NCBI GenBank assembly: GCA_009103225.1
Contig: RHPI01001737.1
Location: 438,223 to 502,222, forward strand
DNA from: Chlorokybus atmophyticus
Lineage: Eukaryota; Plantae; Mesostigma and Chlorokybus algae
Direction: 5' to 3'
Length of the DNA stretch: 64,000 nt
The notes under the pieces are model-generated. The model saw nothing but the letters and a program-made list of their open reading frames with translations, had not been told where the DNA came from and made no database searches. Positions 21,701 through 60,935 of the stretch are shown one piece after another (position 1 is the stretch's first letter; each line of letters begins with the position of its first letter). Position numbers and translations under genes: made by a program.

Positions 21701-23527
21701 TTGCTTTGCTCTTCGTTCAAAACAACCTTGCTCCGCAAGTGGAGCGCGATCGTGAGATTATTAATCGTGTCAGGGTAGAACGGGAGCATTGGAAGGTACT
21801 TAATGTCGTTGGCTACCATGGGTGGCTCTGCACTGGAGATGTTAAGATTCTGCGCCCAACTGTCCTTGAGGGTTGGTAACGCATTCTGCTCTTCCACGCG
21901 CATCCGGAACAGCACTGTGTTATGCATCGTCACCTTGAACTGATCCATGGCAGCCAACTCTGCCGGCTGGAGATGCAGCATTCGGTCACTGCGTACCGCC
22001 GCGTGTTGCCTGTGTCTGGGTTGAGTCGGAGGCCGCGTCTCAGGACATGGAGGCGCCAGCATGGCCTCTTGCAACGTGTGGTTGCGCGTACGCTGTGCAA
22101 CAGAACACATACAATGTCACCCACTAACAGTTTGCACTGCTACTCGGCGGGGTAACTTGACATCATGCATGCATGACTCAACTGCGCACTGTGGTGTATA
22201 CACACCTGCAGGTCGACCGGCATACTCCTCGGACGCCCGAGCGTGGATGTGAGCTTCGTGGACGTGGCATGTATGTCGCCTGTAGTTCTGCCTTTATACT
22301 TGGCTTGGTAACCAGCCCTCACATCCAAGTTGTCTATTGAAGCCAGGACATGCATCCCGGGCCGTGGTTGTAGTCTTGCAATTGAATGCAAGTTGTGCAC
22401 AGCACGCTGATGGATGTGGCTGTTCATGTGACACCTGCTGGCGGTTACCCCCAGACGATTCAACGTCTATATTACTTGTTACCCGTTGTCGCTTGGTCAA
22501 CTGCGTCGGTCACCACCAGGTGCAACGGGGACATGGCCCACTTGCTTCTTGCGTACACCGCAGAATGGAACAGAAAACATGTTTTGTTTTGCAGGATGGC
22601 TAGATTCCTTGCATACCGTGGCCCAGGGGACTTGACTCTCTCCATGGCAATATACCCTGTCAAAGCTCCGAACACCTTGCGCAACGTCTCCCCAGAGGTC
22701 TCCCACTCAGCTTGCCAGTCAACGAAGCGCAAGTCGTGATCAACCTGGTTGCGCTCCACCAAGCGTTGTCTCTCCTTCTCCATCAGCATGTTCAAGTTAC
22801 GCAGCACCACTTCAGGCACTTCTGGTTCTCTCAACGATGTACCTCTGCCTCTGGAGTAAGTTGCGGTCGGCACATCGGTCACCCGCATCGCATGGCGCAG
22901 CAGACACGCTAATGGGTCTGCCCAGGCAGCGATCACCAGAGTGCCCTGTTGCCGTGCACCAGTCACTGAAATGATGGCGCCCTGTAGTCTAGCCTGCACT
23001 GCTCTCAGCAGCACCCGAGCCTGTTTGATGCGGTGCTTCGCTGCCACAGCCGTGACGAGAACAACCGCGTCCTTGTGCAGCAGCTGTGCTGCCACATCCT
23101 TCACCGCACAAGTCAACGCATCGACTCCTGCCTCTTCTGCGACAGCCCGGACGTCGTCTTCATACAGCAGTCTAACCTCTTCCGCCACCATAGCGTCATG
23201 CTGTGCATTTGAAGAAGGTCTTTGTGTGCTGATGGTGTCCCGGAGCCCAGCTATCACATCCTCCAGCTCCACTTGGCGGCAGCGGTAACCATCACGGTCT
23301 TGCTCTGCTACCTCACGCTGCAATTTCTCCATACAAGACTGAGTCGCCTCCTCCTGCACCCTTGTCTCCAACACCTGAAACCCACACAAAACCTCGTATC
23401 CTCTATTTGCGAGTCCCAATGGCACACAGCAACACAGCACACAGTACCTGCACATGCTGTGCGAGGTCGTCCAGCTCTTCTTGCAACTCCCCTCTCGCGC
23501 GCTCAGCCTCCTGTCGCTGCGTGACAT
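18709..23527 (-). mobile_element. AcademX-like transposase gene (Academ DDE domain + XPG/PIN nuclease + Cys8 zinc finger), multi-exon, probably degraded
   Basis: NRLGVTAS, SIDNLDV..TTGDIHAT, ITGDQKTF, PVPGDFHVLMN, VALDEAH..VNRDMK, HPWALFD..GKMRSEDKAKF, MFDTP..VKS, HGEADSRVWVHA, VSPDTDV, TGCDYTSFIGGISK, and C-terminal GCGCKVGRCDSKRCKCRRAGQACSYSCLCIGCEN. This domain order matches Academ proteins as I recall them. Termini not found. Confidence 0.78.
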
Positions 23528-23744
23528 TGGTCGTCTGCTGCTGGCGCAGCACTTGGCTCACTTCCTGTTAGGAGCATCAGCACTGGATTCAGCCTTAACC
23601 CAGCACGCAATTCAGGTACATATAGTTCACGCCTGACAACAATAATATGTGCCACACATAGTACTGCACAACTTGCAGTGCCACAGCCATATGCCATATG
23701 CTCACCTCCCACTGTGTGTGCAAGTGTTGCGCTTCCTTTTTCGC

Positions 23745-25290
23745 TCACTCACCCACATCGTCATGTGACGTGTGCAAACCGCTGTCACTGTCTGGCACTG
23801 CTGCCGCGCGTTCACGCAACTCCACTGCCAGTGCAGCTCGTTCCGCAAAGACATTTTGCAGCGCATCAGACAAGCGCTGCACCTCTCGCTTTAGGAACTG
23901 CAGGTCCCAGCAACTCCGTATCAACACAAGGGTGTACAGGATAGATAGGCAATCAAAGGTGCAACCATGCATTGACATTCTTTCAACACACGCCACCATG
24001 CTGTGAGAATCACTCACATCATGCACATGTCAGTATTGGTTGCTAGATAGCACGCCCATGCGTGCATGTTGCTGTGTCATTATCACCACACGATTGCATA
24101 GACATCCCAACGTACAATCTTGCATGAGCACAATGGTTGACATGACATTCAACAACACACTAAGCGCATGTTCCAGCATAGTACCTCTACTTGGCTGAAT
24201 ACACGTGTTTGTCTACACGTTGTATCACCATGCATAGGAGCAGCGGCCACACTCACATTGCGGACAGGATCTGCACGCACAACAACAATCCAATCAAGAT
24301 CCGCCAGTGAGACACAACAACCATGTCTAACCCGACGCAGGCACAGCATCATTTGCACAACGGCATCACACTAGTTTACTCAAATCAACATGAGCTGAGC
24401 TACATAGCGATCATTGTTTCCATCAACCACTACAGGGACCCACCTGACCCATTCATAGAAGGAGTCTTGGGCGTCTTAGGAGGTGCCTTTGCGTTGCCAT
24501 TAAGTCTACCGATTGTCGGACCCAGCACAACACGGTTACCATCTCTGTCAGTGCGCGCATTATGATGCTGGTACTGCTGCAGAGCGGCTGCAGCAGGCAC
24601 TTGCTGGTGCGCCACTACATGATGGTGCTTGGAACGATTTGGAAGTTGCGCCGACAAAGGGGCCATATTCTCCTGGTCCTCCTCCTCCTCCTCCTCCGAC
24701 TCCGAAGGCCCGGGATCAACATCATTGCTCTGCACGACAACACTGGTCACCAACTGCAAGGATGCATGCACACAACTCTAACGTTCTACCAACAGTCTAA
24801 GCCACCTGGTCATCAAGACCGTCTTGACTGCACGCAGGCAGACGTGGTGCATCCTACACCAACACAACTATATCAGCAGAAGCGCAAAAGCATTATGAAC
24901 AGCTGCATCACCATACGTGCAAGCCAGCACGACCATTGAAAAACTAACCGCGGGCAATGGATTTACTAACAACTCGTCGTCGACCCATCTCCACGTCCGC
25001 CCGGATGTCAAAGCATGCAAGAAAATTCCGGTGGCATTCATCCTAAACTTTTGCAACTTCAACTCCACCTTGAGTTGGTTGACAAACTACTTGTCTTCCG
25101 CCCGACGGCGCTTGGCATACTCTCGCTGGTTGTCACAACGGACCACGCGAGCAGACTCCAGCGCCTCCAACCGCTGAAGTTGCCGCTCAACATTGGACGG
25201 CAAATTACCCTCCTCCGCAACCACCGTCTCCGCCATCACCGCCGCAAATGCAGACACCCACAGCCAAAACAACCAAGGCTGAATGCTCAC
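23745..25290 (-). other. Probable upstream exons (coiled-coil, acidic, proline-rich) of the Academ gene or an adjacent cargo gene
   Basis: Same-strand ORF fragments (SESEEEEEEDQEN, LKREVQRLSDALQN, VERQLQRLEALESAR) separated by GT-AG bounded CA-rich stretches; in-frame TAG at 25087. No recognisable domain. Confidence 0.35.
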
Positions 25291-27284
25291 AGCACAATTT
25301 GAATTCGCACACCATTAAACAGCCAAGACACAGCGCGCGCAGCGCTGGGCCACAGCATATACACACAAGATATCGATATCTTGACAACACCACATCACCT
25401 AACCGACACGCATCACATATGCTAACCACGGTTCTTCTCTACGCGAACACAGCTGATTGACAGCCGTTTCGCACCCTCGTTCACGGCACGACAGTGTCAA
25501 CTGAGCACGCTGAACTCACGCAAATCTACGCTGTCAATCAGCTTCGTGCCAACGACATTCAACAATGTTCACGATTGACTCACGTCGCGAGGGCGCATCG
25601 CTGCCGTCGGTCTGCTCCAATATCACACAGCCGGCATAATCTTTCGCCCATTAGCGTCAGGACTGAGATGCGCCTGCAGCGGTGGGCCTCAGGCGCTATG
25701 TGACACAGCGACACTGCGTGCCATACTGTGCGGAGCAGACTGCAGGCGCATGCACATGCAACACACAGCCAGCACATCAGTATGGGCGTATATACATATA
25801 TAAAAAGTGGGGAAAACAGTGTTGGCCACACACGAACAGCGCGGGCACAGCTGACAACAACTAGCTAATCATATAGCTCAACTACTTATGCATTTTTTTC
25901 TGCCGGCGCTGGGGCATTCTTTCGCCAGGGGCGCTTGTCCTGCTGACGTCCGCCTCCCGCATTGTGCTGTGGTTGGTCATGGCGTCTATCTTTGTCCTTA
26001 CATCGCAAAATGTTTCCCGTGCCGGCCGACCAAATATTGGCAATGGCCGTGCCCCTGAGGATACTCATTTCGACTGTCGTGGCTCACTTCACTGGTAATC
26101 TCGATACAGGGACCTGAGCATAACGGCTGTCACCATCAATCGGCGGCCGTTTACAAAAAGAGCCTGACCCTAATTGACAGGTACCTGTCAAGTACCCATT
26201 AATCAAGCAAAAGGGAATTAACCTAACTGACAAGTAATGAACCAGCATCTAACAATTAGGCACCGGCGACCGTACATCAAATGATTGTGCCTGACAAGAA
26301 CCAGATGGTATCTGTATAGTACCGGCCATTATTAATGTGTACCATCATAGGTACCTGTTGGTACCGCTTGGTCATGATTATGCATCACACAATGATTGTC
26401 GTCAGCTGTGCAAGACGGTGACAAGTAATGAATTTGTAATGCCAATAAAGTTTTTATGCCACAATGTAAACTCCACGAAGCTATTGCTACTACTACTAGT
26501 AGTACAACTAAGCTACTATTTTTAGTCCTATCACCCTTGTACTAAGCTGCAGCTCTTACATCGCCCGCCACTTGAGCTGATAGCTCCGCCGCCGCTCCTG
26601 TAAAGTCAATTAACAGTAGCATACACGCCTACATGCTGTCGCTTGCCATGTATCGCCGCCGCCGCCGCGTCTGGCCTGGCCGCCCTATGGTACAAAGGGT
26701 GGGTAGGCTGCCTGCGCTGTTGCACATAACACAACGTTATGAAATACCGCAACTAAGCTCACCTACTGTTGGCCATTGCCGCCGCCGCCACCACCACCGC
26801 CGCCGCCGCCGCCGCTGCTGCAGCGCTGCTAGCCCCTGCACAACGCTCACAAGTCACGTGAGTCAAGTGTCAACTTGAATGAAGCCGTTCAGCTTTTGTA
26901 TGCTGCCAAAGACACGATGGCACAATCGTACTGTCAAAACGGTACGATTGTGCCATCGTCGCGATGGGAGCATCGTACTATGTTAATTGTACATCAAATG
27001 CAACGTATAAAAGTCACGACTTGCTGGCAATATGCAGCGACAAGTAGGAGTTGCCGGTCACTTGCTTGTCGCTAAAAGATTGCTGCCGCGCATCACATGC
27101 TACGGTTAGGTGATGATCGACATTCGGCCGGCACCACAAGTCACTATAAGGCGACCTGCTTGCCACAACAAGCAGGCCGCCGCGATGGCCAGGCTACGAT
27201 CAACAGTCGGCCGTCACTGCAAAGTCACATGCTTGCCATTTCAGGCAGGCAGCCATTACTTGTGTACTATTTACAGTTGATTGG

Positions 27285-27429
27285 CCGTCAACAACAGCCT
27301 TCCACAATAGCCGACGGCAGACCCAACAGTCCAAAAGTGACATGCTATGCACGGTCAAACACCCGTCAGTCCCTCAGTCCCTGGTCAGTCACTCAGTCCC
27401 TGGTCAGTCACCGTGTAAAATTTGCGACG
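27285..27429 (+). repeat. ~140-bp segment inverted-repeated at 33768-33915; probable transposon terminus
   Basis: GCCGACGGCAGACCCAACAGTCCAAAAGT...GTCAGTCACCGTGTAAAATTTGCGACG matches the reverse complement of CGTCGCAAATTTTACACGGTGACTGAC...ACTTTTGGACTGTTGGGTTTGCCGTTGGC. Confidence 0.75.
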
Positions 27430-27492
27430 TTTACGTCGGCGTGTCTTGCTCACGCTGTCTGTCACGGTGACCAGTATCCTTGTTGCTGAGAA

Positions 27493-32943: not shown

Positions 32944-34331
32944 ACGAAGATGCTGGCTCATTATAAGAGGGAGAAGGAGACGAGAAGACAAGAGCAGGCT
33001 CAAGCAAAGGCTGACGCACAAGCTGTTGCAAAGACACAGAGAGGAGCAACAACATGCAGCATAAGCAGAGGAGGCGCAGTGAGCACAGTCTGCAAAGGAG
33101 GCCCAGGTTTTGCTGATGCGCTACATATGGGACCCTATGGAGTGCCACAACTAGCTGGGAGACCCCTTGTGGAACTATGCAGAGGCCTTTACAAAGCGAC
33201 ACTTCAGACTTGACCCCGCACACAACCAGCAGGTGAAAGAGGCAGGCGCCCGCTGGCGAGAGAAGCGGAAGACCAAGCACACACCAACCACCACACCGCC
33301 TTAGACTTAGGTAGACTTAGCAGTAAAACTCATGCATGCTGTACATAATCAAGCCAACAACCTCTATAACCTTATGTTGTCGCTGGCCTTGTGCATGTCA
33401 TCTATGCATGTCACATGACGGTCAGGGCGCCGCCGCCACACCCCACGGCATCACACAATGACCAACAACTTTACCGTCAAAGCTTCGAGCTTGGCTGCAT
33501 CATGAATCGCCAACGCATCACAGCTATCGCTGCCTGCCACAGCGCCTGCCACAACAGCCCACATCCACTCTATAATGGCTGCAAGGCCTCCGGAAAAAGG
33601 CTCAGCAAAGGCTGCAACTTGCAGCCTCACTGAGGCCTTTCACTCGCGTCTCAAGTCCTCAAGTTAGGGCTTGGGGACTTTTAAGCTATCTGCCCTCACA
33701 CCCCAACTTTGGCGCGCTATATCCGACACGCTATAGCGCAAAAAAATACAACAAAAATAATGCTATGTCGTCGCAAATTTTACACGGTGACTGACTAAGG
33801 ACTGAGGGACTGACTGGTGCCTGAGCCTGCCTAAGCCTGCCTGTTGCTGCCTGAAATATTACTTTTGGACTGTTGGGTTTGCCGTTGGCTTAAGTGGACT
33901 GACGCAGACGGCCGCGGGCCGAAAGTGGTTGTCAGTGGCACTAACCGGCCGAGAGTTGTCAACCAGTTACCCTTTGGTCGATGTGCACAGACGGCCGTTA
34001 ACCGGTAGTTACGGACAGCTGACAGCCATAGCCGGCAGTTTCGTTGCCGTTACACTGCTGTTAATATGTGACCCTTGCCATTTGACAAAAGTTGGCAATT
34101 CTTGCCGTAAGCCAACACTAACATGCCATGCAGCTTGTACAAACCTTGGACTGATTGTTTGGTCTTGCACCTAAAAGCCCACAATATATACAATGTACGG
34201 GCAGTGGTGAGAGTATGTCCACTCACAACTGAGCAGCCGACTTGCGCATGAAACTATCCTATAACATTGAGTCTAGCTGTCGGACTCATGCGCAGCTTGT
34301 CAACCCGTGGTGCCTGCCTAAGAACTCCTCC

Positions 34332-35205
34332 TCAAACCCCCTCCTCCTGTTCCTCCTCCGACGAGTCTTCTGCTTCAACGCCGGAGTCATCTTCATCCGC
34401 TGCCTCGCTCGCTGACAGTACAGCGGCTACTTCGTCCTTCAGCTTGAATGTCAGCGCCTCGCCGTGCACGCGCATGCGCTTGATGGTCGCTTTGAGAGTG
34501 ACCACCTGCATTTGGTAATGCTGTAAGAGTGGCGTGCTGCCAGAGGACTAGCCCATCAGCATACACACGCTTACCTCGTCTTCCGCTTTGTTGCACTCCG
34601 CCAGGCAGACAGTCAGCCTGCCGCGCTGCTCTTGGTTCACTCTGACCAACATGGCAATCTGCAAGCATACTGCTTAATTACCGCTGGAAACATTAAACTA
34701 GGTCATAGATTACCCGTTCGTTTGACTCCGCAGCTTCTCTTTTGCGACTTGTGAGCTCCCGCAAGTAGAAATAGGCTGTGCATTTGCGAGATTGGTCATG
34801 CTGTTCATGTGCATGACACTGGAGGTTGTGCATGAGGGTGTGCATGTCGTATTGACAATGTATGTCAAGTGCAAGATACTTGAGGCTGTGCATGTGCAAG
34901 ATAAAAGAACCCTAGCATGTGGCATTGACAGTGCATCGTAACCCACCTTGGTTATGCCAGTCTTGTTTGGTCCCTTCAATCATGTCGCCGTGGTCGCAGC
35001 TGCTGGTGGGTCGGATTTTCTTAGAGGCAGTATTGTGGTGTGCCTTTGCCCACTCGGAGGGGGAGCCCTGTAAGATATCGCCCGAGTCACTGTTGTCATT
35101 GGATGTGCCCTTGGTAGTCTTGGTGGGGTTTGACACCGAGGACACCCCTCCGGCACCCTGCCCGCCCTGTGCGAACATGGAATTCATCCCGGACCTCGAC
35201 CACAA
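34332..35205 (-). CDS. Hypothetical spliced gene divergent from the Plavaka transposase
   Basis: Exon-like frames (HMHSLKYLALDIHCQYDMH..., VVTLKATIKRMRVHGEALTFKLKDEVAAVL...acidic tail EEEQEEGV*) separated by GT-AG segments. Start uncertain. Confidence 0.4.
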
Positions 35206-35368
35206 TGCCCACTACGCCCCTGGCAGCGCCGCCAACGATCTTCCAAACGCCACATACCCTCGGCATCACGCCCCTGTAAGGGCATAGCTTGGCGGAGCTA
35301 TCAATGGTGTTTTCATGCGCAGGGGGACTGACATTGCCAGAGTTGTCAATGGTACGAACTGCCATTGC

Positions 35369-35539
35369 CATTGTACAAAGGTACCATTTCAATGGTACCT
35401 TTGTACAATGCCTAGACCTTTTGGCAAAGGCATCTTCGTACCATTGAAACGGTTCAATCAGAATATATATGTATATAAAAATATCCAGAGACTCACCCTG
35501 GACGTGCAATGGCTCGTTCGTACCATTATAATGGTACGA
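35369..35539. promoter_or_regulatory. Cluster of GTACCAT-based palindromes in a divergent intergenic region
   Basis: 20-bp-arm hairpin at 35369-35410; perfect 22-bp palindrome TCGTACCATTATAATGGTACGA at 35518-35539. Confidence 0.5.
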
Positions 35540-35690
35540 CGGAGCCAGTGACTGGCGGCCAAGTTTCCCGCCTCTGGCATGCAAGGGTAGCGGTAGCGGT
35601 GGCGGTGGCGGCGGCGGCGGCGGGTGTGCGTGTTGCTGGATATGATGCAGGTTACATTGGCGACACCTGTGTCGACGTTAGTAGTGAGAT

Positions 35691-38600
35691 ATGGGAGTCC
35701 TTTGTCCGTATTGCCACATGCGCTTCGCCACACGCAGCTCGGTCTACATGCACATTATTAGCAGCAGGGTGTGCAAGCAGATCAAGCTGTATGTCGGCCA
35801 GCGTCCATTACAGTACGATGCGGGTCATGTTGAACCGGGGAGTTCGATCCAGGATGCTCACATGCTTGATGCTGAAGGATTCCTTCAGGAGACACACGCA
35901 CAGCAGCAACAGGAGGAGGAGGAAGTGAACGAGGGCTTTCGATGTGTGCGTGTGCCTGAGAAACCTGTGGCACGCCAACATGGAAGTGGAGGCGTCCCTT
36001 CGCACGCGTCGGAATCCAGGTGGTATGGCTCGGAGCATGCTCTTGCAGTGGCATTCGTGCAGTGCAACAACGGCCAAGGCCTGTCGGCCTCCGACATGGG
36101 GCGGATCATCAAGTGCATCCGAAATGCACACTTCCTGACGGAAGAGCTCCAGTGGGAGACCGGTGTGCATGCGGCCAGCTACCTCCGGACCACGATTGCT
36201 TTCTCTCAGTCTGAGGTGTGTTCACGGTGTGCGGTGCATGTGCTTCAACCATCAGAGCCATGTCACATATGCACATGCGAGTGTGCTGCCGTATCAGAAC
36301 TACGTGACGGCTGACCTGCGCAAGCCTGGAGACCCTGAGGATCAGGACATCTGCGTCACATATATGCCGGCCAAGGTCTGTGAAATGCAGTACCTAATGC
36401 AGTATCGATGCAGTATCTATTCTGAGGCCAGCATAGTAAGTAATGCTCTTGGTCGGAGCAGGTATGGCTCGCGCGGTTGTATGGCAATCCACATGCCGCC
36501 AATGGCTTCAATCTCCAGTACACTGGTGACGAGCACAGCTTTGGCCATCCTTCCACGGGCGATTGGTGGAAGGATGTGGAGGTGGATTTGAGGAGAGAGG
36601 TGGGGGAAGCGTCCTACTTGGCGCCTGCCATTCTGTACAGTGACAAGACCACGCTGGACAGCGCGGGCAAGCGCTCTGGCTACCCTCTGATGGCATCGCT
36701 TGCCAACTACAGTTGGGACATGTATGCTAGCAACATGGGGGTTGTTATGATAGCGCTTCTGCCGGTGGTTCACGCAGTGGCCGGGCATCCCACCTGGGCG
36801 CAGGGCAAGGAATCGTTCTCCATTCGGAAACGTGAGATTTTTCATGACGCTTTGAATGTAGTGTTAGGGGATGTGAAGCGGGCGAGTTGGGAAGGTCTGC
36901 AGCTCATCGACCCGAATGGCATCGAGCGTCGTGTGTTTCCCGCGCTTGCCAACTACATCAGCGATTTGCAGGTAGTGGGCATGAATGGTTGTAACCGGAT
37001 GCAGCCCGCCAGCAAACAGTGCATGGAGGATGTTGTCAGTAGAACATCTGAGTTTGTCGTGTTGTAGGAGACTGCCACACTCGCACGCACTGTGTCGGGC
37101 AACCAAACACGACATCCTTGCGATGTTTGTCTCGTCACCAAATCAGATCTGTTGGAGATGGATGAGGACCGGGAATTGAGAACCGAGGCCTTCTACACAC
37201 CAGCAATACGTCAGCTGCGGGCGGACCTGCATAGCGGTGTTAGGAATGCACGCCAGACAGCCAAGGCTTTCAAAGAGCAGCACTCCATGCATGTCGAGGA
37301 GGTAATGGTCAAATTACCGGCATTCGTGAGGATGAATGGCTTTCCGTGAAACCAGGCAATGTGGTTTGGCAACAGAATGCACTGTGGGGTTGGCGACAGT
37401 CGCGGGTGCCGGGAGCTGACTGCTACTCTCGTCTTGCCCCTGACGCAATGCATGTGCTGGGAGGCATCATTGACCACCTGCTTGCTGCTGTGTACGACGC
37501 CGCGAAGGAACGAATGCGTCCATCCACGAGACAGATTCTGCAGGCCAGGCACGTCTTTGGTGTTGCTTTTGTGTTGAACACAAAAGCCAACAACACGTGC
37601 TCACGAGCAGATGTGCACAGGCTGAATGCATGCAAGGCGACTCTGCGGGTTTCGCACTTCAAGGCACCCACAAGCACAGTAGATTTCTTCCTGTCCGACC
37701 ACTCCTTTCAGGTGGTGGAGAAAGTGGCGGTGCTGCAGCTGCTGCCGGTCCTCGCAGACGGTTTGCTGCTCGACAGTGAGGGCAACGATTTCTTCACCAT
37801 TGCTGCCGCATCGCTTGCCCAGTGGAACAAGAAGTTGCTGAAGGCGCATGAACACACAAGAGAGACCCTGACCACAGCCGACAACGAGCTGGCTGCCTTC
37901 AAAGCTGCAGTGTTGCATCCGCTACTGTCGTCATATTCTGCACAGAAGTCAGGTTGGAAGATCGAGAAGATGCATCAGCTCACTCATTTTGGGCCGGCAA
38001 TTGTCAGCAGTGGACACCCAGATTGGTTCAGCGCCAACCGCATGGAGCAGACGCACGCCCAAAATATCAAACGGTGGGCGCGTGGTGGCAACAACCGGGA
38101 CTACCAGGCACGTATCCTGAAGGCATGGAGCTGTGCGGAATATGTGAGAGAGGATGGCATGGTCGTGGATCCCGAGATGCGCTCGGTCATGGCGCAGGCG
38201 CGGCAGCAGTGCTGTAATGTCATGGAGAAGACGGACAAGTTGCTACGGATGGATGTGCTGACAAGGAGGGAGTCCAGCCCGTACTGGAGCGGATCTGCGC
38301 GTAGCCGCCAAGTCGCCTTGAAGACTCCATTTGCCGACAAGCTGCCTGCCACCCTTGACAGCTGGTTGAGGAGGGAACAACTGGAGTTGGCCGACGGGTG
38401 GCGTGCTGTTCGCGTGGTGAACGGAGGCGCAGCGGTGTACATGACATCAGGAGTCAGCATGGCGCGCGCAACTGGGATGTTCCATGGGCGGCCTTGGTTC
38501 TCTACACTTGAGTTGGAAGGTGATGAGGACGGTGTGAACGTGACGTGGTGGGCTCAGGCACTCCTTTTTCTGCGCGTGGTGGTGTGGGGTGGTAGCGGCG

Positions 38601-38833
38601 AGCGCGTGTGGAAGGAGGTCGTGTTTGTCCGCTGGTACACGAAGCTGGATGTGACGAGCGACACAAAGTGCATCGCTCTGGAATGGGAAAAGCGTCGAGG
38701 CGGTCCACATCTCGATGTCGTGACTCTGGAGCAAGTAAAAGGCATTGTCCAGCTGCTCCCCATGTTTGACAAGGACAGCGCCCGTGTACAAGAGGGCAAG
38801 TATTGGGTGAACGTTCACTGCACTTCCACGTGA
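35691..38833 (+). CDS. Plavaka-family transposase (multi-exon) with N-terminal C2HC/C2H2 finger
   Basis: CPYCHMRFATRSSVYMH; GDWWKD; ILYSDKT...GKRSGYPLMASLAN; IALLP; IFHDALNVVL; ERRVFPALANYISDLQ|E; PCDVCLV; APDAMHVLGG; KMHQLTHF..AI..SGHPD.FSANRMEQTHAQNIK..AR; C-terminal FLRV..EVVFVRWY. Whether the exon 2/3 junction is intact is uncertain. Confidence 0.88.
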
Positions 38834-39036
38834 CACATGTACTTGTCTCACTACTCTGAGTTTGGAGCATATCAGTCAGTTAGGCATTGCTAATCGTATG
38901 CTAAGACTTTTGCATGTGGACGTGTACAATACCGGGCAGCTGTCACTGCACAACTGTCACCACAATCGAATGATCCATGCAACATTCAACAATCAGTCCG
39001 CCGTGTGGCATTAAGCATCAATACAGTGCACCACAC

Positions 39037-40765
39037 TCAAGCCTCATAGTTCCATGACACAGGAGGGTAGTCACAGCGCATATCCATTGTTTCAAGCATG
39101 AGACGCCCTATGCACTCCGCCATTGCGGGAGGAACTGCATTCGCTATGGAAACGGCCGAGGTCATCCATGGCACTCCCAGCGCTGTTTGCCACGCAGCAA
39201 TGCCGCCCCTGGTGCTTGGAAGGCCATAGACCGGGTACATCTGCTGTGGCGCGTTTGATGTCACGATTGTCTTCTTCGCGCTAGCGGACAGGTGCGGCGA
39301 TAGCAGTCCAACTGCCTTGCCCGCGTGCGAGCAGCGTGCTGGTGGGGTAGCTACCACTGGCTGTGTCTCAAACAGACGGTGTCGGAAAGTTGATAGGCCA
39401 AACATCGTGCCACAAAGGGACAGATTGGGTCTGAATGAGGAAGCTGCTCCTGGCACATTCTCAATCACAAACTTGACCTGGCTTGCAAGCAGCAGACGTC
39501 GGACGAGCGGTATCATATCCTGGTGTCTCCAGGATGTGCCATGTGCCGCCCGTTGAGGTGCCGGGATAGCACCTGAATAGGCCTGGCATGGTGGACTGGC
39601 CCAGATGAGCTCGTACTCGCTCAGCTCTCCTGCACTCAGGGTGCATACATCGCGGTGTATGAAGGGCAGCGGGTACTCAGAGGAGGGACTTATGTCCATC
39701 CCGGTCACGTCAAAGCCTGCGTGGTATAGACCGACACTGGCACCGCCACCGCCGCAGAATAGGTCGAGTGCCCTTGGTCTGCGTGTGCGTCCCAGCTTGT
39801 TGTCAAATGGCGTGTATGTGGTCAAGGCTGGCCGTGGTGCTGGCCAGGGACTAACAATGATGCCGTCCGGGCTTACTTTGCGACTGACGTTCTCCCCTCC
39901 GGCGCGCAGAACATGGCGTGCCCCGTCAACTGATGTGTACGCGAATACGTTGTGCCCTTTGAAGTTGATGGTTTGTGGTCGATCACCGTCATCGAATACT
40001 ATACGGTGCTGCCCTGCAAAGACATTTTCCATTGCACCATGCATATATGATGCGTCCTCAATCTCGCACGCCACGAAGCGATGCTGACCTGACGCTTGCT
40101 TGAATGATTCCACAACGCCCGCATACCATTCCCCATCCAGCGGCCAATGCACCATGACACTCACACCGATCAGCTGCTCGCATCCCAACTTAACTGCGTT
40201 CCGCAGCCGATGCAGTGCGCTGTCCAACGGTCGATGGTCTGCCTCCTCTACAGCGGCCAGGGGATGGAACTGCCCACGCCCACACCGTGCAAGACTGCTC
40301 TGAATGCGACAACAGCTTCAACATGCATGAAATAAGCATACGCCCAACATAACATGCAGTGATACGTCGCGGTCCACTCTTGTGGATTACCTCCACAGCA
40401 TCCACCACCTGTCCACTAACCACATGTCCCGGTGTTGTCCATGTGAAGAAGCGCATGGGTTCCCCTCGCCACTCGAAGCATGAGCGCGAGCACGATTCGC
40501 ACACGCACTGCACGCAATGGAAAAACTCGGGTTCCTTGCACAGCACTTGGCCGAGGCGGCAGCCAAACACGTCGACATTGTGTGTGGTGTGATGCCAGCA
40601 AGCAGCACTAAAACCGTGGCACACTGTCTGCACTCGCTGGCATTCGGTCAAGTGTGCTCGCATTTGCTGCCTACGGCCATTGGCACATACGTACGCATTG
40701 CATTGTGGGCACACCAAGCATGGTCTCCTAGGTGAGGGTGATTCAACTGCTGCCGCCGACATCAT
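39037..40765 (-). CDS. Cys/His-rich Zn domain - Tudor - C5-cytosine DNA methyltransferase, copy 2 (intact, 3 exons, 520 aa)
   Basis: Exons 40765-40391, 40299-40089 and 40013-39037 (1563 nt) join in frame. Tudor IGVSVMVHWPLDGEWYAGVVESFKQASGQHRIVFDDGD; MTase ALDLFCGGGG (I), ASPPCQ (IV), FVIENV (VI), FRHRLFET (VIII), NAVPPAMAECIG (X). Confidence 0.92.
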
Positions 40766-40903
40766 GCAAAATAGGAATCGGCACGGCTGCCCACAAACTG
40801 AGCGAGACTTTAGGGTATGGGCATCAATTTAGGGTTGCCAGCTTACGAACCCTAAATGGGTCAAACTTCAAGTGAAGCACGACTGTACCTTATACGCTAT
40901 TGC

Positions 40904-40921
40904 AGTACCATGCATGGTACT
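40904..40921. promoter_or_regulatory. Perfect 18-bp palindrome AGTACCATGCATGGTACT upstream of the Tudor-MTase gene
   Basis: Directly visible, ~140 bp upstream of the ATG at 40765, among several ATGGTAC half-sites. Confidence 0.45.
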
Positions 40922-41248
40922 ACATCAACATGAATGGTACTCTATCTGTTAATGGTACTACAGTACAAGGATACTCGCATACTACCACGATCGTAGAGTA
41001 ATACTGTGCTGTCATGCCATGGAACCCAGAGCGCTGTCCGAGTTTGTTGCTGTCAACCACGCTCTAAACCAGCGAGGTATGCAAGCCATGCACTGACTCA
41101 TGCGCCGGGCAGTCATCATACACATGTACAGCCAATGCTTCTAACAACAGCAGATCTCTGGTGCACCATGCACCATGCTGCAACTATACATGTACCTACA
41201 TGGTTCACAGGAAGCCAACACAAAACTACAATACATGCACAATTGGCA

Positions 41249-44200
41249 TCAAGGCGGGGGCCAAATCACCGCCGACACGTTGGCGTCTTGCATCAGGCGT
41301 GGCGACCAAAACGGGTGAGGTTGCTTGCAGAATGGACACGCTTGTAGATTCTTTGATTTATTTGCCACAGTCTTCTGATGTGCTATGATGCAGACATGGC
41401 ACATCGCTTTCTTGCAACAGGGCGTCTCCCCATCCGCTGGGGGGGGGGGGTCTTCCATGCGACAAATCAGCACACATGGTGCACGCGGGTGTGCAAGCTG
41501 CCTCTGCCACCAAACTCTGTTATCGCGTCGCAGGCGTAGCGACTCCCATCTGAATGGCGCAGCATAACGCTCCACTGCCTGCTCGATCACCTGACGCCCA
41601 TCTGCCGCCATACACCACCTGCTGGTCTTGGTGGTCTCGTCCAGCATGCGTTCATCCAGGCCCTCGACATGGCTGTCGTCACTCGTGTACTCCCCCGCAT
41701 CGTCATTTTCTTCGAGCTTCCACAGAATCAGCTCGACGTGCCGTATGACATACAGCCACTGCCAGCCAAAGCATGCCAAGTACAGCTCGAATGGTTTTAC
41801 TTGCCACCCAGTATGTTTGCTCAGGTAGTGGCACACATCTCGACCCGCATTAGTCGACATCGACAGGTACATCTGCTGCAGCAGGTCGAAGTTCTGCTCC
41901 GCAGATAGCTCTTGCACATTGCCGGGGTGCTGCGGCAGCAACAACACCATCATATCGAGGACGGCGAGGGGCAACAACGTACTACGGATGGCCATATCGT
42001 GTATGGGTTCCAACCACGGCCAATCCCCAGAGGTCTGTTTAGACCGCATTCTCCGCGTTTGCTCCCACTTATTGCAAACTTTCGTCACCCACCTCGAGGC
42101 ATGCCGCATGCGGTGATGCAGCGCGTCTTGGGCGTACTGTAGGGTGATCAACTCCTTTGCACTACGAGTCAGCCCCCCAAAGCGTCTGCGCGTCGGTGCT
42201 TTGAGCTTAGGCAGCTCGTGCCGCACCGGCTGTCTCTCTGGACGATGCTGAGCAGCCACTTGACGCTGTAAACCCGCCTGTGCCTACTCAGGACACACAG
42301 TCAGCCCCAGTGAGGCTTCAAGGCGCTGTGCTTCTTCTAATGTTGTAACGATGCCTCACCTTTCCTTTTTTGGTCCTGTCAGCGTCCTTTGTTCCAACAA
42401 CCTTCTTCTTTTTTTTTTGGTCACCCTGCACATCCTGGCAGGCGCTCTCCGTGGCACTGTCACTCAGAGGAGGTAAGGCGTTATCTTCTTGCTCCACAGC
42501 CTTGCGCTTGTTGGTTGCCTCCCGTTCCTCCACGACCTCATGTTGCTTCATGAGGTCGAGCATGAAGCCTTTGTCTTTCAGCGCAGCTTTCAGGACACCT
42601 CGATCAATCTCTTTACCAACAAGACAGGCTGGGATCAATGTGGCAAGCTTAGAGGGAGAGGGCGAGCTACAGCTGCTTCTTGATGGAGATGCCTCCGGAT
42701 GGTCAGAGTGCGGTGGCAAGTGAGTCTCCGCGGCAGGAAGGGAGGGTGCTGAATTGGGATTGCGAGCATGTGGCTGTGGTTGAGGGGAGGCAGGATGTGC
42801 AGAACACTCGGCTACTTCTTGCCTAGCACACGAAGGCGAGGCCTGAGGCGTTGGCGCAGCACTCTGGGTCACAGCCGGTGGTAGCGGGGAATTGGCAACG
42901 CCATTCCGCCACTCTCCGATCAGGTGTGTTACCTCCGGTGGCACTTCATGCATAGGCCACGACCACTGTTCGGTGCTTGCAGGCTTGAGGAGCCAAAAGT
43001 GTGCTTCTGGCTCATCAGGAGCAGTGTTGCCCACCACCAGGACTGAGTTGGGGGCTTCTTTATTTTCAACCCAAACTGCGCTGCCGGTCCGTGGCACCCA
43101 CTCCCCATGCTCGCGCTGAACGGTCACGCAGCCAATCAACAAGCCCAGCTTGTTGGCAAACATGGTCATCTGCAGGTGCTCGACGTACACATCTTTTCTC
43201 CGCACGATCTGTCGCACCTTGGCCATGGCTAGGTCAATGTTGCAGTTGATATCAGCCAACATGGTCGCAGGCAGTTTGTCGTAATACTGCGCCATCTCTC
43301 CCGCGGCACCAGTGGCTCTGCAGAAGTCTAGGATTCTGCTCGCCACGCCTGCATCGACAGCCTTGGCGGTGATTTTGCGGAGAGTGTGCCCCCTGCCGTC
43401 GTCGTCCATGGTGTCAAGCATGGCCCAAAATCTGCTCGAGCTGGGGCACTTGTGATCATCCAGGACACTTTGCGCTATGGATGGCTTGGCGCGAAATACA
43501 CAATGGTAGAAGCAGTTACCATCCGTTAGCGCATTGAAGTGGTCCCATGAGGCGAGCTGGCCACCTAGCATGACTGATGGCCGTATGCGGGTTGCGGCCA
43601 GCTCCTCTGATGACTCGCTGGCAGGTGGTGACCCCTGCTGCATGCGCATACAGCACTCACATGGTGTGTCCAACTGTGGACGGCAAGAGTCACAGTGACT
43701 GATAAAGTACCTGAGTTTGGGGCAGACTGCCGGCTTCAACTTGCAGCGGGTGGGGTAAGGTAGGTGCAGAAGCCACATCGGTTGTTGCATTGTGCTGTGG
43801 TCTCGCCGGTGGCGGCAAGAAGGATTGTTGCCCCGCAATCACCGGTGCTGCTCGTGGAGGAGATGGCAGTGCACGAAGGACTGGTGCCGCGGAAGGTGGT
43901 TGCGCTCTGGCTGGGAGGGGAGCAGGAGCTGCAGGTGAGACCACTTGTGCATGCAGCAAGGGGGGCTGTATACAGGACCCAGGATAAGATGGCTCACAAT
44001 GTTGCAAAGGACGAATATAAGCTTATGCAGTGCCTGACGCATTGTTACCAAGGCACGAGCATAAAAGACAGCGACTTACCTCAATGGCCCGTGGGCTGCA
44101 TGGAGCAGGGGAAGCCATGGGGGCTGACAAGGTGGTATTGGCTGCACTCTCCCCGCCACCCTCGATGGCAGACTCGTCACGGAGCTCTTGAGCCATGGGC

Positions 44201-45200
44201 ACATCATGCGCCACTGCCTCAATGGACATGTCGGGATTCAACAGGCCAACATGCATGTTAAACTGATGCCGCATTGCCGCCGCGCCCATCAGCAAGTGGG
44301 ATTGAAGGACCAGTTGATGGGATTGAATCCAGGCTTGCATAGGAGCTCCAACAGGACTTAGTGCACTGTGGTGCTGTCAACCAATCACATGTGGGTTAGC
44401 TGCATGCTTGCGACACTGCAATTGCAATAGTCAACTGCGTCACACCGTCATCAGTTGGTTGCTTCGAACAGTCACCTGCGGCATTGCTGGTTGATGCACG
44501 AATGATTGCATGGACTGCGTCATTGCTGGTTGATGCACTATTGGTTGAATGCCGGACGAATGGCCACGCGCTCCTGTGCTCAAACCCAGCCTACTTCGTT
44601 CGGCACGCGCGCGCGACTTCGCACGCTCACGCACATCCTAGCATGCAAAGGTAGGCATGCATTGGAGCCGACATTGCAGTCAACATGCACAGCGAGATTG
44701 GCAACAACATACCGCCGCCCAGCTCTGTCTATCTGCTCTTGCTTCCGCAATGTCGGCTTGACTGTAGGGTGGGTATGGGTGAATAGTGGAGGCCTGCAGC
44801 CACGCTACATATATCACATGGACTGCGCTAAAAAACAAATTGCTCTTGCAAGGAAATGCATGTGACTGTTGAGCGTACCTCTGCATTCCTTTGTGCTTGT
44901 TCCCACAGCCGCAACTGGTCCCGCATGGTTCTGACAAGGGGCTCCAAGGACTGCAGCTCCTGATCCACTCCCTGTTGCAGAAAGCGAGCCACCAAGCAGC
45001 TCTCTGTGTGAAGATGGTCTTTAATGGCTTGCCTGCTGGTTTGTCCAATGTTGGTGATGCATGTTGGACAGCCCCATTGCTGACGCCTGCCATGATCCAT
45101 GACGTGGCGACCGGTAGTAGCTGGCTTCGCTGCTTGAACTCTTACGACCACAACTTCTCGCAAGATGTGCCACGCCGCCGCCGCCGCCGCCGCCGCCTCC
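41249..45200 (-). CDS. Spliced gene encoding (C2HC finger) - low-complexity - OTU cysteine protease - RING-type finger
   Basis: OTU TDGNCFYHCVFR...EAHFWLL in ORF 42318-43838. RING-like CVLIC...PCCKKAMCHVC...CPFC in ORF 41249-42259. A 94-nt intron 42266-42359 (GTGAG donor, CTGAC branch-like site, TTTACAG acceptor) joins them in frame (KKGK|RQVAAQ). The upstream exon has CPTC..KDHLHTESC; the 5' exon structure is approximate. Confidence 0.72.
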
Positions 45201-45361
45201 TCCGACTCCTGGTCCTCCGCCTCCTAGTCGAACCCAGGCCCATCAAGCCTGACATTCGACCCGTCATCGACCTGGTGCCCCTGCGTGCCATCATCCGGCC
45301 ATCAATGAAGCGTGTTTGGGTGAGTGCATGCTAACTCCCATTTGGGCTGATCGAGCAATGC

Positions 45362-45520
45362 CTCTGTCGTACCATGGATGGTACGACAGAGCCATTGTAC
45401 GGCAATCGCTGGGGTTGGACGAGAGATGCCTCTGTCGTACCATAAATGTTACGACACAACCATTGGTAACAATGGTTGTACGAAGCATGCATGGCACGAA
45501 TGCATAAGTCGTACCATCAA
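45362..45520. promoter_or_regulatory. GTACCAT palindrome cluster in a second divergent intergenic region
   Basis: 14-bp-arm CTCTGTCGTACCAT-GG-ATGGTACGACAGAG at 45362-45391 and a degenerate second copy near 45430-45460. Confidence 0.5.
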
Positions 45521-45699
45521 CCATAGGAGCAAGGACGCACTACAAGTGCGACTCTAGTGCGGGACTCTAGACGTTCAAAACCGCCTCATTTTCGTTTTCG
45601 CGCCTCATACATTCGGGCGGGCCAACCGGCGGCGGCAGCGTTGGAGGCGGCAGCGCCACTTACAGCTAAACAGGCGGCACCCGACTATCAGTTGGAGAG

Positions 45700-47290
45700 A
45701 TGCCTCGTGGTCCATCCGTAAGTGCACCTCGTCGTGGAGGTCGGCGCCAGTTGTCCACATTGCCCCCAGTGTTCAACCAGGCAACCGTCGCCAACCAATC
45801 GCAGCAAGACCCCGCGCTAACGCCCAGCACATCACAACAACTCCACCTGACACCGCAGTCGCAAGGGCAAGCTAGACTGCATGCGTTCTTGATGCACTGT
45901 GCACGTTGCTTCTTGCTCAACTTCTAACTTGGATGCTTGCTTCTATCATGACTAGCACAGTGACTCACTGCATGCGTTCTGGATACACTGTGCACGTTGT
46001 TCTTCTTTTGCAACTGTGAGGGTTGCATCTTTCATGGCTGGCAGCATGACTCATGTGGTTGTGCTTGCAGAGGGTCGATTGGAACCCCCAACCCAAACGC
46101 ATTTGGCCGTGACGTGGCAACCTCGGCCGTCAGCAACCCTTCCCCAAGCAAGTGGAAGATTGGCAACGAGGTAAGCACTGTGTGACACTGTGACACTGTG
46201 TGTATGTGTGTAACGGATTGTTCTTCTGTGGACAGCATTTGCGAGATGCCGTCGTTGAAATCATAAACGGCCACTGGGTAGAGAGCCACGTTTATCCCAA
46301 GGAGGACACTATTCGTAACGTCATGTGTCAGGTGCTGTGAATGCTTCATGACCGCACTGCACCGTGACACTGACCAACCTGCCCGTGACAGGTAGTTGGC
46401 TTCGACCATGACGACGAGGCCGATGCGGCCAAGTTCTATGAGGTGTACTGGACTCCCAAGGAGTGCCCCTTCCACTGGAGTGTCGCCCTGAAGAAAGCTA
46501 CGCAGGTCCGGTCTGAGAACGTCACCAAGATCAAGCATGTCCTTGAGAAGGAGTACAAGTGGACACTGTTTAACAGCAACAAGCGCAAGTGAGTTGGGTC
46601 CCTCACCACCATGTCTGCTATGCAACACTGCCTTCTTACTCAGCCTCCATACACACGTACTCATCTCGCCTATTGTAACCGATTCAATCAGGCACATCGA
46701 CGCCCTAATGGACCCCGAGACCCAAAAAGCCCAGATGCGCAACGCGCTCCAAAGTAAGTCACAGGCACTATTCTAGCCTGGTGCAGGCTCAACTTGAACT
46801 ATCTATTTCGTGACTAATGCCTTGTCGGTATGACTGTCGCAGACAAGTCATGGCGGAGATTTGAGGTGACCGACACTGCAGACCCGGAGCGGAGGAGATA
46901 CATCCATGAATGGGGCAATCCCATAATCTGGCAAATGATCGTGCAATGCTGGTCTTACGCCGTCACTACACCTGGTCGCCGGCAGCTGACAGTCAACCAC
47001 TTCTTTGTGTGCTATCCATGAATTAGATTTTACTCCACCCTCATCCTCAATGTTGGACTCCTCATCACTCAACAACTCCACCTGCGAAGAAGAGTCTTCG
47101 ACAAGGCCCTCTTCGGATTGATCATTCTTGTGGACACTCCACTCTTCGAGGGCACCTTCGATGGGCATGAGTGCCAGTCCTCTAAATCCGGTGGGCATGA
47201 ACTCGCATGCAACTCGCTTCTGCCTCAAGCAAACTCAGCTGATGGGTTGGATGCAAGTGAAAGATGCGTGTTTCCTTGCAAAAAGGTAGT
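45700..47290 (+). pseudogene. Spliced hypothetical gene (unknown family) with an in-frame TGA at 47019-47021
   Basis: Clean GT-AG bounded exons: GSIGTPNP...KWKIGNE | HLRDAVVEIINGHWVESHVYPKEDTIRNVMCQ | VVGFDHDDEADAAKFYEVYW...LFNSNKR | HIDALMDPETQKAQMRNALQ | KSWRRFEV...CYP*IRFYSTLILN. Confidence 0.6.
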
Positions 47291-60559: not shown

Positions 60560-60886
60560 AGCGGCAACGACCAGCAGACTCTCTCCGCCGCCGCTCCCCG
60601 ATCCTCCCGCCACCAGCAACAGCCGCTACTGCAGTAACATGGTCGCTATGGCTTGGCTGACGGTATCGCACCCATCCAGCCTGTTAGGCGTCAGGCAGAC
60701 AGACATCAAGAAACCCACTGACCGGCTGATCGCTGTCACGTAGGCTCCGTGTGCATGTGTACTTTACAAAGGTGCTTGTGTGCCAGAGTCCTTTGGGGAT
60801 TCATTGAGAGACCCAAGACTAAACTCCGTGCAGTGAATACAGTGATGTATTTTGTGCGCAACAGCGAGCGAGCGAGCGAGAGCGAG

Positions 60887-60935
<49 letters not shown>

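What the first reader, a model, noticed from the sequence alone, without database searches (positions are those of the whole stretch)
41249..43838. OTU deubiquitinase and RING finger apparently joined in one protein (A20-like ubiquitin editor)
Seen: the ORF track shows two separate ORFs, but a canonical 94-nt intron (42266-42359) fuses them in frame. The upstream part has the OTU catalytic signature DGNCFY...HF; the downstream part ends in C-x3-C...CC-x4-C-x2-C...CPFC. Known: OTU removes and RING adds ubiquitin; A20 combines both activities using a different finger type. Inference: a transposon-encoded ubiquitin-editing enzyme, possibly acting on histone H2A/H2B ubiquitin or on silencing factors, next to the Tudor-MTase.
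Basis: partly seen in the sequence, partly recalled or inferred. Interest (0 to 1): 0.8.

Follow-up and report, generated by a model that had tools for sequence, protein, structure and literature searches.

The report
Transposon gene joining ubiquitin eraser, writer
A gene inside a repeated Plavaka-type DNA transposon is predicted to splice into one protein of about 1,100 residues, with a likely ubiquitin-removing (OTU) domain and a likely ubiquitin-attaching (RING) zinc finger, which would give the jumping element its own control over protein ubiquitination in the host.

Summary
Observation confirmed and extended. The two ORFs, the OTU Cys/His boxes, the eight-Cys cluster and the in-frame GT-AG intron (donor 42359) are present. 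All three acceptors after the branch site (76, 82, 94 nt) keep the frame. The gene probably starts further upstream: seven exons (45100-41249), 1,112 aa, no stops, six phase-0 introns like those of the element's transposase. It is cargo of a repeated Plavaka (EnSpm-like) transposon, about 33.77-47.0 kb, whose right end is missing here. OTU is supported by a language-model match (0.94) and an alignment-guided fold (Z 10.6 to OTUD2; partly circular); plain sequence support is weak. The RING is an RBBP6-like C4C4 variant with an atypical first Cys pair; all matches are sub-threshold. No RNA run, close homologue or activity data exist, so splicing and both activities are predictions. A20-like chain editing and a histone target have no support. 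Precedents: Helitron-borne OTU/VTD deubiquitinases, a fungal VTD-RBR fusion, red-algal Plavaka cargo genes. The scan earlier noted a transposase-RING-deubiquitinase fusion in another genome, but not this gene. Verdict: new variant of a known kind; interest 0.5.

The parts
44879..45100 (-). Predicted exon 1 (aa 1-74): ATG, CxxC...H...C zinc-finger-like motif, likely coiled coil
   Evidence: Open frame with donor GAG|GTACGC; no Pfam match at E<=10; manual model, not transcript-confirmed
44713..44793 (-). Predicted exon 2 (aa 75-101)
   Evidence: Phase-0 GT-AG flanks, introns of 85 and 75 nt
44446..44637 (-). Predicted exon 3 (aa 102-165); least certain boundaries
   Evidence: Chosen because it keeps phase 0 without a stop
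44080..44373 (-). Predicted exon 4 (aa 166-263)
   Evidence: CTAAC branch upstream, donor GAG|GTAAGT
43711..43965 (-). Predicted exon 5 (aa 264-348), Pro/Ala-rich
   Evidence: Donor CAG|GTACTT; 73-nt intron to GCAG at 43638
42360..43637 (-). Exon 6 (aa 349-774): OTU domain, low-complexity linker, basic NLS-like patch (KKKKK at 42416-42402)
42900..43580 (-). Divergent OTU-type protease domain; Asp387, Cys390, His561 of the model; Trp at His+2
   Evidence: ESM Atlas 0.94, 189 of 256 features; AF2 with OTU alignment pLDDT 69, pTM 0.66; Z 10.6, rmsd 3.5, 141 aligned to OTUD2
42266..42359 (-). Predicted phase-0 intron joining OTU and RING exons; alternative in-frame acceptors at 42284 and 42278; branch CTGAC at 42304-42300; contains ORF A's stop
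   Evidence: more variable than the flanking exons among shown variants; no RNA evidence
41249..42265 (-). Exon 7 (aa 775-1112): basic segment, unidentified middle domain, acidic linker, RING-like finger, stop
   Evidence: middle part has no Pfam match and only two E>0.3 PDB sequence hits
41327..41476 (-). C4C4 RING-like finger, C-x3-C-x14-C-C-x4-C-x2-C-x17-C-x2-C
   Evidence: Pfam zf-C3HC4 E 0.046, 14 bits against a cut-off of 21; top PDB hit TRIM30 2ecw E 0.03; ESM named hits all RING clan, 0.89-0.91
45369..45517 (.). Cluster of four GTACCAT motifs upstream of the gene (likely promoter region shared with a divergent gene)
   Evidence: similar clusters at 35349-35537 and 40905-40958, none between 41000 and 45340
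35697..38833 (+). Plavaka transposase, spliced (5' end approximate)
   Evidence: Pfam PF18759 E 4.5e-23; phase-0 introns of 82, 86, 96 and 74 nt by inspection
39037..40828 (-). Neighbouring cargo gene: Cys-rich + Tudor-like + C5 DNA methyltransferase
33768..47000 (.). Repeated transposon copy that carries the gene; left terminus near 33768, right end not present in the window
   Evidence: Run X2: 836 contigs laid; depth 150-320 across about 33.5-47.0 kb against 1-23 outside; loose ends at 33768 and 47000; no inverted copy of the left end within the element

Best explanation
This is a cargo gene of a repeated Plavaka-type DNA transposon that is predicted to splice into one protein with a likely active OTU deubiquitinase and a likely E3-type RING finger, and it most likely works as a self-protected ubiquitin ligase serving the element in the nucleus. 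Shown in the sequence: the element context, the open exons, the Cys/His boxes, the eight-Cys finger and the splice signals. Predicted: the splice, the OTU fold and the RING fold. Inferred: the RING recruits a host E2 and ubiquitinates a host factor (for example a silencing protein) held by the unidentified middle domain, while the tethered OTU strips ubiquitin from the fusion itself and from element proteins such as the transposase, so that they escape the proteasome. The two domains would then act on different substrates rather than re-editing one chain as A20 does. Odds: one protein with both domains about 0.75; OTU active about 0.7; RING an active E3 about 0.5; the whole mechanism about 0.4.
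For: Splice: strong in-phase donor 41 nt before ORF A's stop (chance about 0.002). All three acceptors after the branch site are in frame. Phase and size match the five other modelled introns of this gene and four of the transposase (72-114 nt, all phase 0). ORF B's first Met lies only 209 nt past ORF A's stop, and no GTACCAT cluster lies between them, whereas clusters lie upstream of four of the element's other or flanking gene starts. Among the 40 shown X2 variants, 5 substitutions plus 3 insertion rows fall in the 94-nt intron, against 9 in the 1017-nt exon 7 and 23 in the 1278-nt exon 6; one diverged contig keeps the donor. In the modelled frame 12 of 32 exonic variants are synonymous and 0 create stops; the shifted frames give 8 and 4 synonymous, with 2 and 1 stops. 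OTU; Gly/Cys/His columns are invariant against 75 OTU-family proteins; 7 of 11 OTU-core variants are synonymous, 4.0 expected, p 0.055. RING: three weak but concordant searches; the CC-x4-C-x2-C core matches the RBBP6 consensus (PMC1360078, passage). Precedent for the mechanism: Helitron DUBs are proposed to prevent degradation of transposition proteins (PMC9741609, passages); OTULIN prevents LUBAC auto-ubiquitination (PMC9356280, passage).
Against: No transcript evidence. No close homologue was found to show that the fusion is conserved. OTU sequence support outside the Cys box is weak: no Pfam match at E<=10; family HMM E 0.055, Cys box only; tail against 71 family tails not above shuffles (53 of 300 reach it); best single tail p 0.0045 before correcting for about 35 candidates; ESM recognition value 2210, below its 2300 mark; single-sequence AF2 failed (pLDDT 37); the good model used an all-OTU alignment, so the fold match is partly circular. 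His+2 is Trp rather than the usual Asp/Asn (recalled), although the viral relatives also lack it (HFK 62, HFQ 6, HFR 3, HFN 3 of 74). RING: first pair is C-x3-C, not C-x2-C; Pfam covers only model positions 13-40 and stays below cut-off; ESM shared features 122-146, under the 170 typical of true family members. Exon 7 shows no excess of synonymous change (2 of 9, 2.0 expected). No substrate is identified.
Confidence: 0.4

Rival explanations
1. One spliced protein, but only the OTU is an enzyme. The Cys-rich tail is a degenerate RING or other zinc module used for binding or dimerisation, so the gene is simply another transposon-borne deubiquitinase.
For: Atypical C-x3-C first pair; all RING matches are sub-threshold and cover mainly ligands 3-8; the top three ESM hits are unnamed viral clusters; transposon OTUs are common in Helitrons (PMC11417382, passages).
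Against: All eight Cys are present with RING-like spacing; a hydrophobic residue precedes Cys2 and a Lys follows Cys8, as in E2-binding RINGs (recalled); none of the 9 shown exon-7 substitutions hits a Cys.
Confidence: 0.25
2. An A20-like editor: the OTU removes one chain type from a substrate (possibly histone H2A/H2B or a silencing factor) and the RING writes another on the same substrate.
For: Both domain types lie in one predicted chain; basic NLS-like patch; a chromatin-type methyltransferase gene lies next door.
Against: The OTU model is closer to OTUD2/Otu1 and viral OTUs than to A20 or Cezanne (Z 10.6 against 7.1-7.2); no ubiquitin-binding or histone-reading domain was detected; no substrate data.
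Confidence: 0.12
3. Two separate products: ORF A ends at 42318 (OTU protein) and ORF B is a separate or untranslated gene.
For: No RNA shows the splice; no homologue shows the fusion; donor-branch-acceptor triples arise by chance about twice per window.
Against: Position and phase of the donor, three in-frame acceptors, a gap of only 209 nt to ORF B's first Met, no motif cluster between the ORFs, faster change inside the intron.
Confidence: 0.12
4. The protease domain is inactive, acts on a ubiquitin-like modifier other than ubiquitin, or serves to process the element's own protein.
For: Extreme divergence (12-23% identity to the aligned OTUs); Trp at His+2, changed to Leu in a minor variant class; several structural neighbours are viral OTUs solved with ISG15.
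Against: Asp, Cys and His are intact in an open frame; the major X2 class is synonymous at the Asn of DGNC and has Pro before TDGNC, as the viral relatives do.
Confidence: 0.11

Closest known systems
Helitron-encoded OTU and VTD deubiquitinase domains (PMC9741609, passages; PMC11417382, passages)
   Same: A DNA transposon carries a cysteine-protease deubiquitinase domain; proposed role is protecting transposition proteins from degradation.
   Different: There the domains lie in or near the RepHel ORF of a rolling-circle element. Here the gene is a separate multi-exon cargo of a cut-and-paste Plavaka element and ends in a RING. The paper says transposon OTU activity had not been tested.
Agaricomycete VTD-RBR fusion protein (PMC9741609, passage)
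   Same: A deubiquitinase domain and a RING-class ligase in one polypeptide.
   Different: A host gene, with a VTD rather than an OTU and an RBR rather than a single RING.
A20/TNFAIP3 (PMC9356280, passage; domain layout recalled)
   Same: N-terminal OTU plus C-terminal zinc-finger ligase activity in one chain.
   Different: A20 uses A20-type fingers and a larger OTU subfamily. This protein has a RING-type finger and an OTUD2/viral-like OTU, and no editing activity is shown.
RBBP6-type C4C4 RING (consensus C-X2-C-X11-C-C-X-[NS]-X2-C-X2-C-X12-C-X2-C; PMC1360078, passage)
   Same: Adjacent Cys-Cys followed by x4-C-x2-C and a final C-x2-C.
   Different: First pair spaced x3, loops of 14 and 17 residues, Lys at the [NS] position; no DWNN domain.
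Giant Plavaka elements of red algae with PAG1-3 (10.1101/2025.02.11.637652, passages)
   Same: A large Plavaka element with several accessory genes, including a DNA methylase; inverted-repeat arrays lie beside a cargo gene.
   Different: PAGs are an N6-adenine methylase/SET, a ParB/2OG oxygenase and an unknown gene; 'OTU' does not occur in the main text. Supplements were not seen.
Uncharacterised ~240-aa OTU proteins (PF02338) from metagenomes, Nucleocytoviricota-like
   Same: DG(N/D)C Cys box, HF-x His box without Asp/Asn at +2, similar C-terminal extension.
   Different: These are about 240-aa proteins (only 95-420 aa were searched); identity is 12-23%, too weak to claim a viral origin.

Membership tests
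OTU superfamily | Cys box D-G-x-C and downstream His box in one open frame | tested here: met
   DGNC at 387-390, HF at 561; invariant columns G, C, H in alignment A3
OTU superfamily | Match to Pfam PF02338 or PF10275 at the curated cut-off | tested here: not met
   No family at E<=10
OTU superfamily | OTU fold | tested here: inconclusive
   Z 10.6, rmsd 3.5, 141 aligned to OTUD2, but the model was built from an all-OTU alignment; single-sequence model unusable; ESM 0.94, with recognition value below its mark
OTU superfamily | Asp/Asn two residues after the catalytic His (recalled; not universal) | tested here: not met
   Trp; the related family has K/Q/R in 71 of 74
OTU superfamily | Ubiquitin isopeptidase activity | not testable with these tools
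   Needs an assay
RING finger (C4C4 / RBBP6-like variant) | Eight zinc ligands in RING order | tested here: met
   Cys 1038, 1042, 1057, 1058, 1063, 1066, 1084, 1087
RING finger (C4C4 / RBBP6-like variant) | First ligand pair spaced C-x2-C | tested here: not met
   C-x3-C
RING finger (C4C4 / RBBP6-like variant) | Profile match at cut-off | tested here: inconclusive
   PF00097 14 bits against 21, E 0.046; TRIM30 E 0.03; ESM 0.91 with 122-146 shared features
RING finger (C4C4 / RBBP6-like variant) | Cross-brace fold | not tested
RING finger (C4C4 / RBBP6-like variant) | E2-dependent ligase activity | not testable with these tools
   Needs an assay
A20 family | A20-type zinc fingers | tested here: not met
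   The tail gives only RING-clan Pfam matches
A20 family | A20/Cezanne-subfamily OTU | tested here: inconclusive
   A20 Z 7.1, Cezanne 7.2, OTUD2 10.6 on an alignment-biased model
Plavaka (CMCT/EnSpm-like) transposon | Plavaka transposase | tested here: met
   PF18759 E 4.5e-23, 82 bits against 26.3
Plavaka (CMCT/EnSpm-like) transposon | Termini TGT..ACA or CATCA..TGATG with 2-3 bp TSD (PMC12730594, passage) | tested here: inconclusive
   The window reads TGT at 33766, but other contigs diverge before 33768; the right end is absent, so no TSD could be checked
Plavaka (CMCT/EnSpm-like) transposon | Dispersed repeat that includes the cargo gene | tested here: met
   Depth plateau and many divergent contigs over 33.5-47.0 kb, four contigs with other flanks at 33768; depth is not a copy number

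The most novel reading that the evidence does not exclude
A cut-and-paste transposon encodes a single-chain OTU-RING ubiquitin writer/eraser that is co-regulated with its transposase and Tudor-methyltransferase through a shared GTACCAT promoter motif, and that rewrites ubiquitin marks on chromatin or silencing factors at its own copies: an element-borne ubiquitin arm of anti-silencing.
Probability: 0.15. Interest if true: 0.8.

Novelty: new variant of a known kind. Interest (0 to 1): 0.5.

Why it matters
Transposon-borne deubiquitinases and deubiquitinase-ligase fusions are each known, but I found no paper on an OTU-RING chain or on ubiquitin enzymes in Plavaka elements (searches; open-access library only, supplements not seen). 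If both domains are active, this is a compact, testable case of a transposon using the host ubiquitin system in both directions. It would help explain why transposons keep capturing deubiquitinases, an open question raised in PMC9741609. If only the OTU works, it extends a known theme to a new transposon superfamily.

Tried and rejected
RNA: no RNA holder was listed. X1 is only guessed to be RNA and its 7 contigs do not cover the junction. No whole genome is held, so no other intact copies or right terminus could be read. Homologue searches were empty: OTU part against longer proteins, 0 of 902 candidates; against 1.84 billion representatives, 0 at E<=0.001; exon 7, 0 of 710 candidates at E<=1, 185-592 aa only; viral contigs, none for exon 7, none of 182 pattern matches for alignment A1, none for a fixed-spacing C4C4 pattern. 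Metagenome and viral scans with the OTU part gave four loci selected by the DGNCFYHC pattern itself, so their E-values are not independent. PDB sequence search found nothing for the OTU part. Single-sequence AlphaFold was unusable. hhalign gave probability 87% over only 36 columns. The shuffle control crashed and was replaced, which were mostly non-significant. The middle domain of exon 7 stays unidentified. The wide structural search was not run and no complex prediction was made. Rejected: the start at 43838 (a stop-to-stop boundary, not a start); fusion onward into the methyltransferase gene (stop at 41249, separate motif cluster at 40905-40958); A20 family membership; any claim of viral origin.
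Full report
Observation. The two minus-strand ORFs are as described. Removing 42359-42266 (AAG|GTGAGG ... CTGAC ... TTTACAG|) joins them at phase 0 without a stop. The donor class AG|GTRAG occurs 17 times in both strands of the window; one in phase within 45 nt of the ORF's stop has a chance of about 0.002. Complete donor-branch-acceptor triples are not enriched overall (2 donors against a shuffle mean of 2.1), so the argument rests on position. The three YAG acceptors after the branch site (42284, 42278, 42266) are all in frame with ORF B, so the intron may be 76, 82 or 94 nt and the fusion holds in each case. The OTU Cys-box pattern and the CC-x4-C-x2-C...CPxC pattern each occur once in six frames and in 0 of 60 shuffles (post-hoc patterns).

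Gene model. Reading upstream by hand gives five more exons. The model 45100-44879, 44793-44713, 44637-44446, 44373-44080, 43965-43711, 43637-42360, 42265-41249 has six GT-AG introns of 72-114 nt, all phase 0, and encodes 1,112 aa with one terminal stop. Four introns read by inspection in the neighbouring transposase are also phase 0 and 74-96 nt. The upstream exons were chosen to keep the frame and are less certain than the last two. ORF B's first Met is 209 nt past ORF A's stop. GTACCAT occurs 20 times in the window (chance mean 6.2; 0 of 100 shuffles reach 20); 14 of the 20 lie in three clusters at 35349-35537, 40905-40958 and 45369-45517, upstream of the element's gene starts, and none lies between 41000 and 45340. 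This fits one transcription unit for OTU and RING.

Context. A Plavaka transposase (PF18759, E 4.5e-23) and a C5 methyltransferase (PF00145, E 7e-6) lie to the left. In run X2, 836 contigs lie on 33-48 kb, in identity classes 366/267/132/71. Depth is 150-320 from about 33.5 to 47.0 kb and 1-23 outside, with loose ends at 33768 and 47000. The stretch is therefore a repeat that includes the gene; depth is not a copy number, and X2 may be close to the window's own source. The left end has no inverted partner inside the element, so the right end is missing in this copy. Earlier AI notes call this genome likely an early-branching green alga with many Tudor-methyltransferase transposons; I did not test the organism.

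Variation among copies. One search showed 40 of 164 substitution rows; I used 39 and dropped 41212, which is outside the gene. Five substitutions and three insertion rows lie in the 94-nt intron, 9 substitutions in exon 7 (1017 nt), 23 in exon 6 (1278 nt) and 2 in the 73-nt intron. One diverged contig keeps the donor and differs inside the intron (table 7). In the modelled frame 12 of 32 exonic changes are synonymous and none makes a stop; the shifted frames give 8 and 4 synonymous, with 2 and 1 stops. In the OTU core 7 of 11 are synonymous (4.0 expected, p 0.055); in exon 7, 2 of 9 (2.0 expected), though 6 of 9 fall at third positions (p 0.04). Frameshifting indels occur in exons at depths of 2.5-7.4, against about 120 for the main class, which indicates decayed copies. 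The table is truncated, so these counts are suggestive only.

OTU domain. For: ESM Atlas 0.94 with 189 of 256 shared features and 10 of 10 named hits in one family or clan (PF02338 is on 34%, 20% and 72% of the members of the top three clusters). The alignment to 75 OTU-family proteins is collinear, with invariant G, C and H. AlphaFold with that alignment gives pLDDT 69 and pTM 0.66. All listed Foldseek hits are OTUs or otubain-type deubiquitinases (best E 7.8e-4), and VIA Z is 10.6 to OTUD2, 7.1 to A20. Against: no Pfam, PDB-sequence or database homologue; the family HMM catches only the Cys box (E 0.055); the region after the Cys box scores no better than shuffles against 71 family tails (53 of 300), and p 0.0045 against one protein out of about 35 pattern-selected candidates; the ESM recognition value is below its mark; the model is alignment-driven. 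His+2 is Trp; the related family has K, Q or R in 71 of 74. I put OTU membership at about 0.85 and activity at about 0.7.

RING finger. The spacing is C-x3-C-x14-C-C-x4-C-x2-C-x17-C-x2-C. The core matches the RBBP6 C4C4 consensus given in PMC1360078 (passage read), but the first pair is x3. Pfam's best match is zf-C3HC4 at E 0.046, below cut-off and over model positions 13-40 only. The best PDB sequence hit is TRIM30, 2ecw (E 0.03). ESM named hits are all RING clan at 0.89-0.91, with 122-146 shared features among the listed hits, and three unnamed viral clusters rank first. No structure was predicted for it. A RING-type zinc finger is likely (about 0.7); E3 activity is about 0.5.

Mechanism. 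Most likely, a nuclear, element-serving ligase with a built-in deubiquitinase: the RING marks a host factor, and the OTU keeps the fusion and other element proteins from being degraded. This is inference from precedent. Erven et al. propose that Helitron deubiquitinases protect transposition proteins (PMC9741609, passages), and OTULIN restrains LUBAC auto-ubiquitination (PMC9356280, passage). Rivals: DUB-only with a non-catalytic finger (0.25), A20-like editing of one substrate including histones (0.12), two separate products (0.12), inactive or non-ubiquitin protease (0.11).

Known systems. OTU, UCH, Ulp1 and F-box-associated domains are recurrent Helitron cargo (PMC11417382, passages). A VTD-RBR fusion exists in Agaricomycetes. 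Red-algal giant Plavakas carry methylase/SET and oxygenase cargo, and the word OTU is absent from that main text (10.1101/2025.02.11.637652, passages). The words OTU, RING and protease are absent from the main text of Kojima's TET-transposon survey (PMC12730594, passages). A RING ORF is reported in one Ghost MULE (PMC6446971, passages). PMC9940879 and PMC13015453 were read as passages and added nothing on this architecture. Six searches (listings only, except the papers named) showed no OTU-RING protein; subscription papers and supplements were not seen. The scan itself noted a transposase-RING-deubiquitinase fusion and a PHD-OTU-MULE transposase in other genomes (unreviewed), and no look-alike of this sequence.

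Verdict. The feature is real, the fusion is likely but unconfirmed, both domain calls are probable but sub-threshold, and the A20/histone reading is unsupported. New variant of a known kind; interest 0.5.

Noticed in passing
window 35349-35537, 40905-40958, 45369-45517; also 26339 and 26687: GTACCAT motifs, often as inverted pairs, cluster upstream of the element's genes (14 of 20 window matches; chance mean 6.2), and two lie near the likely promoter of the neighbouring element. They may be sites for an element-encoded DNA-binding or anti-silencing protein.
   Followed up: partly
window about 16400-27430: A second, different transposon-like unit (DUF6589 E 1.9e-5, TCR/CXC motif) carries a homologous Cys-rich/Tudor-like/C5-methyltransferase gene (up to 55% identity). 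Its end at 27301-27429 is 76% identical to the Plavaka left end at 33769-33898 in inverted orientation. Two transposase types appear to share termini and cargo.
   Followed up: partly
window 1489-2929: A third C5-methyltransferase-like ORF (PF00145, E 3.8e-9 at 2330-2929).
   Followed up: no
window about 45600-47030, + strand: A further spliced cargo gene, divergent from the OTU-RING gene and of unknown family; its last predicted exon crosses 47000, where X2's main contig leaves the window sequence.
   Followed up: partly
window about 34300-35300, - strand: A small spliced gene between the left terminus and the transposase, with a weak counterpart at 25704-25805 in the second element.
   Followed up: no
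window 7696-9306: Copia-type LTR retrotransposon pol fragments (gag, protease barrel, integrase), broken by stops.
   Followed up: no
window 12378-14016: ORFs that read like a DIRS-type reverse transcriptase/RNase H region (recalled resemblance; no Pfam match for the one ORF tested).
   Followed up: no
window about 60700-62000: An extremely AT-rich simple-repeat tract (GC 8.6% in 61001-62000) that produces spurious long ORFs; the window also holds 895 N.
   Followed up: no
L003:391-1113 and P0001-P0119: A large uncharacterised family of about 240-aa OTU proteins (PF02338) with an HFK His box that lacks the usual acidic or amide residue at His+2; ESM clusters point to Nucleocytoviricota.
   Followed up: partly
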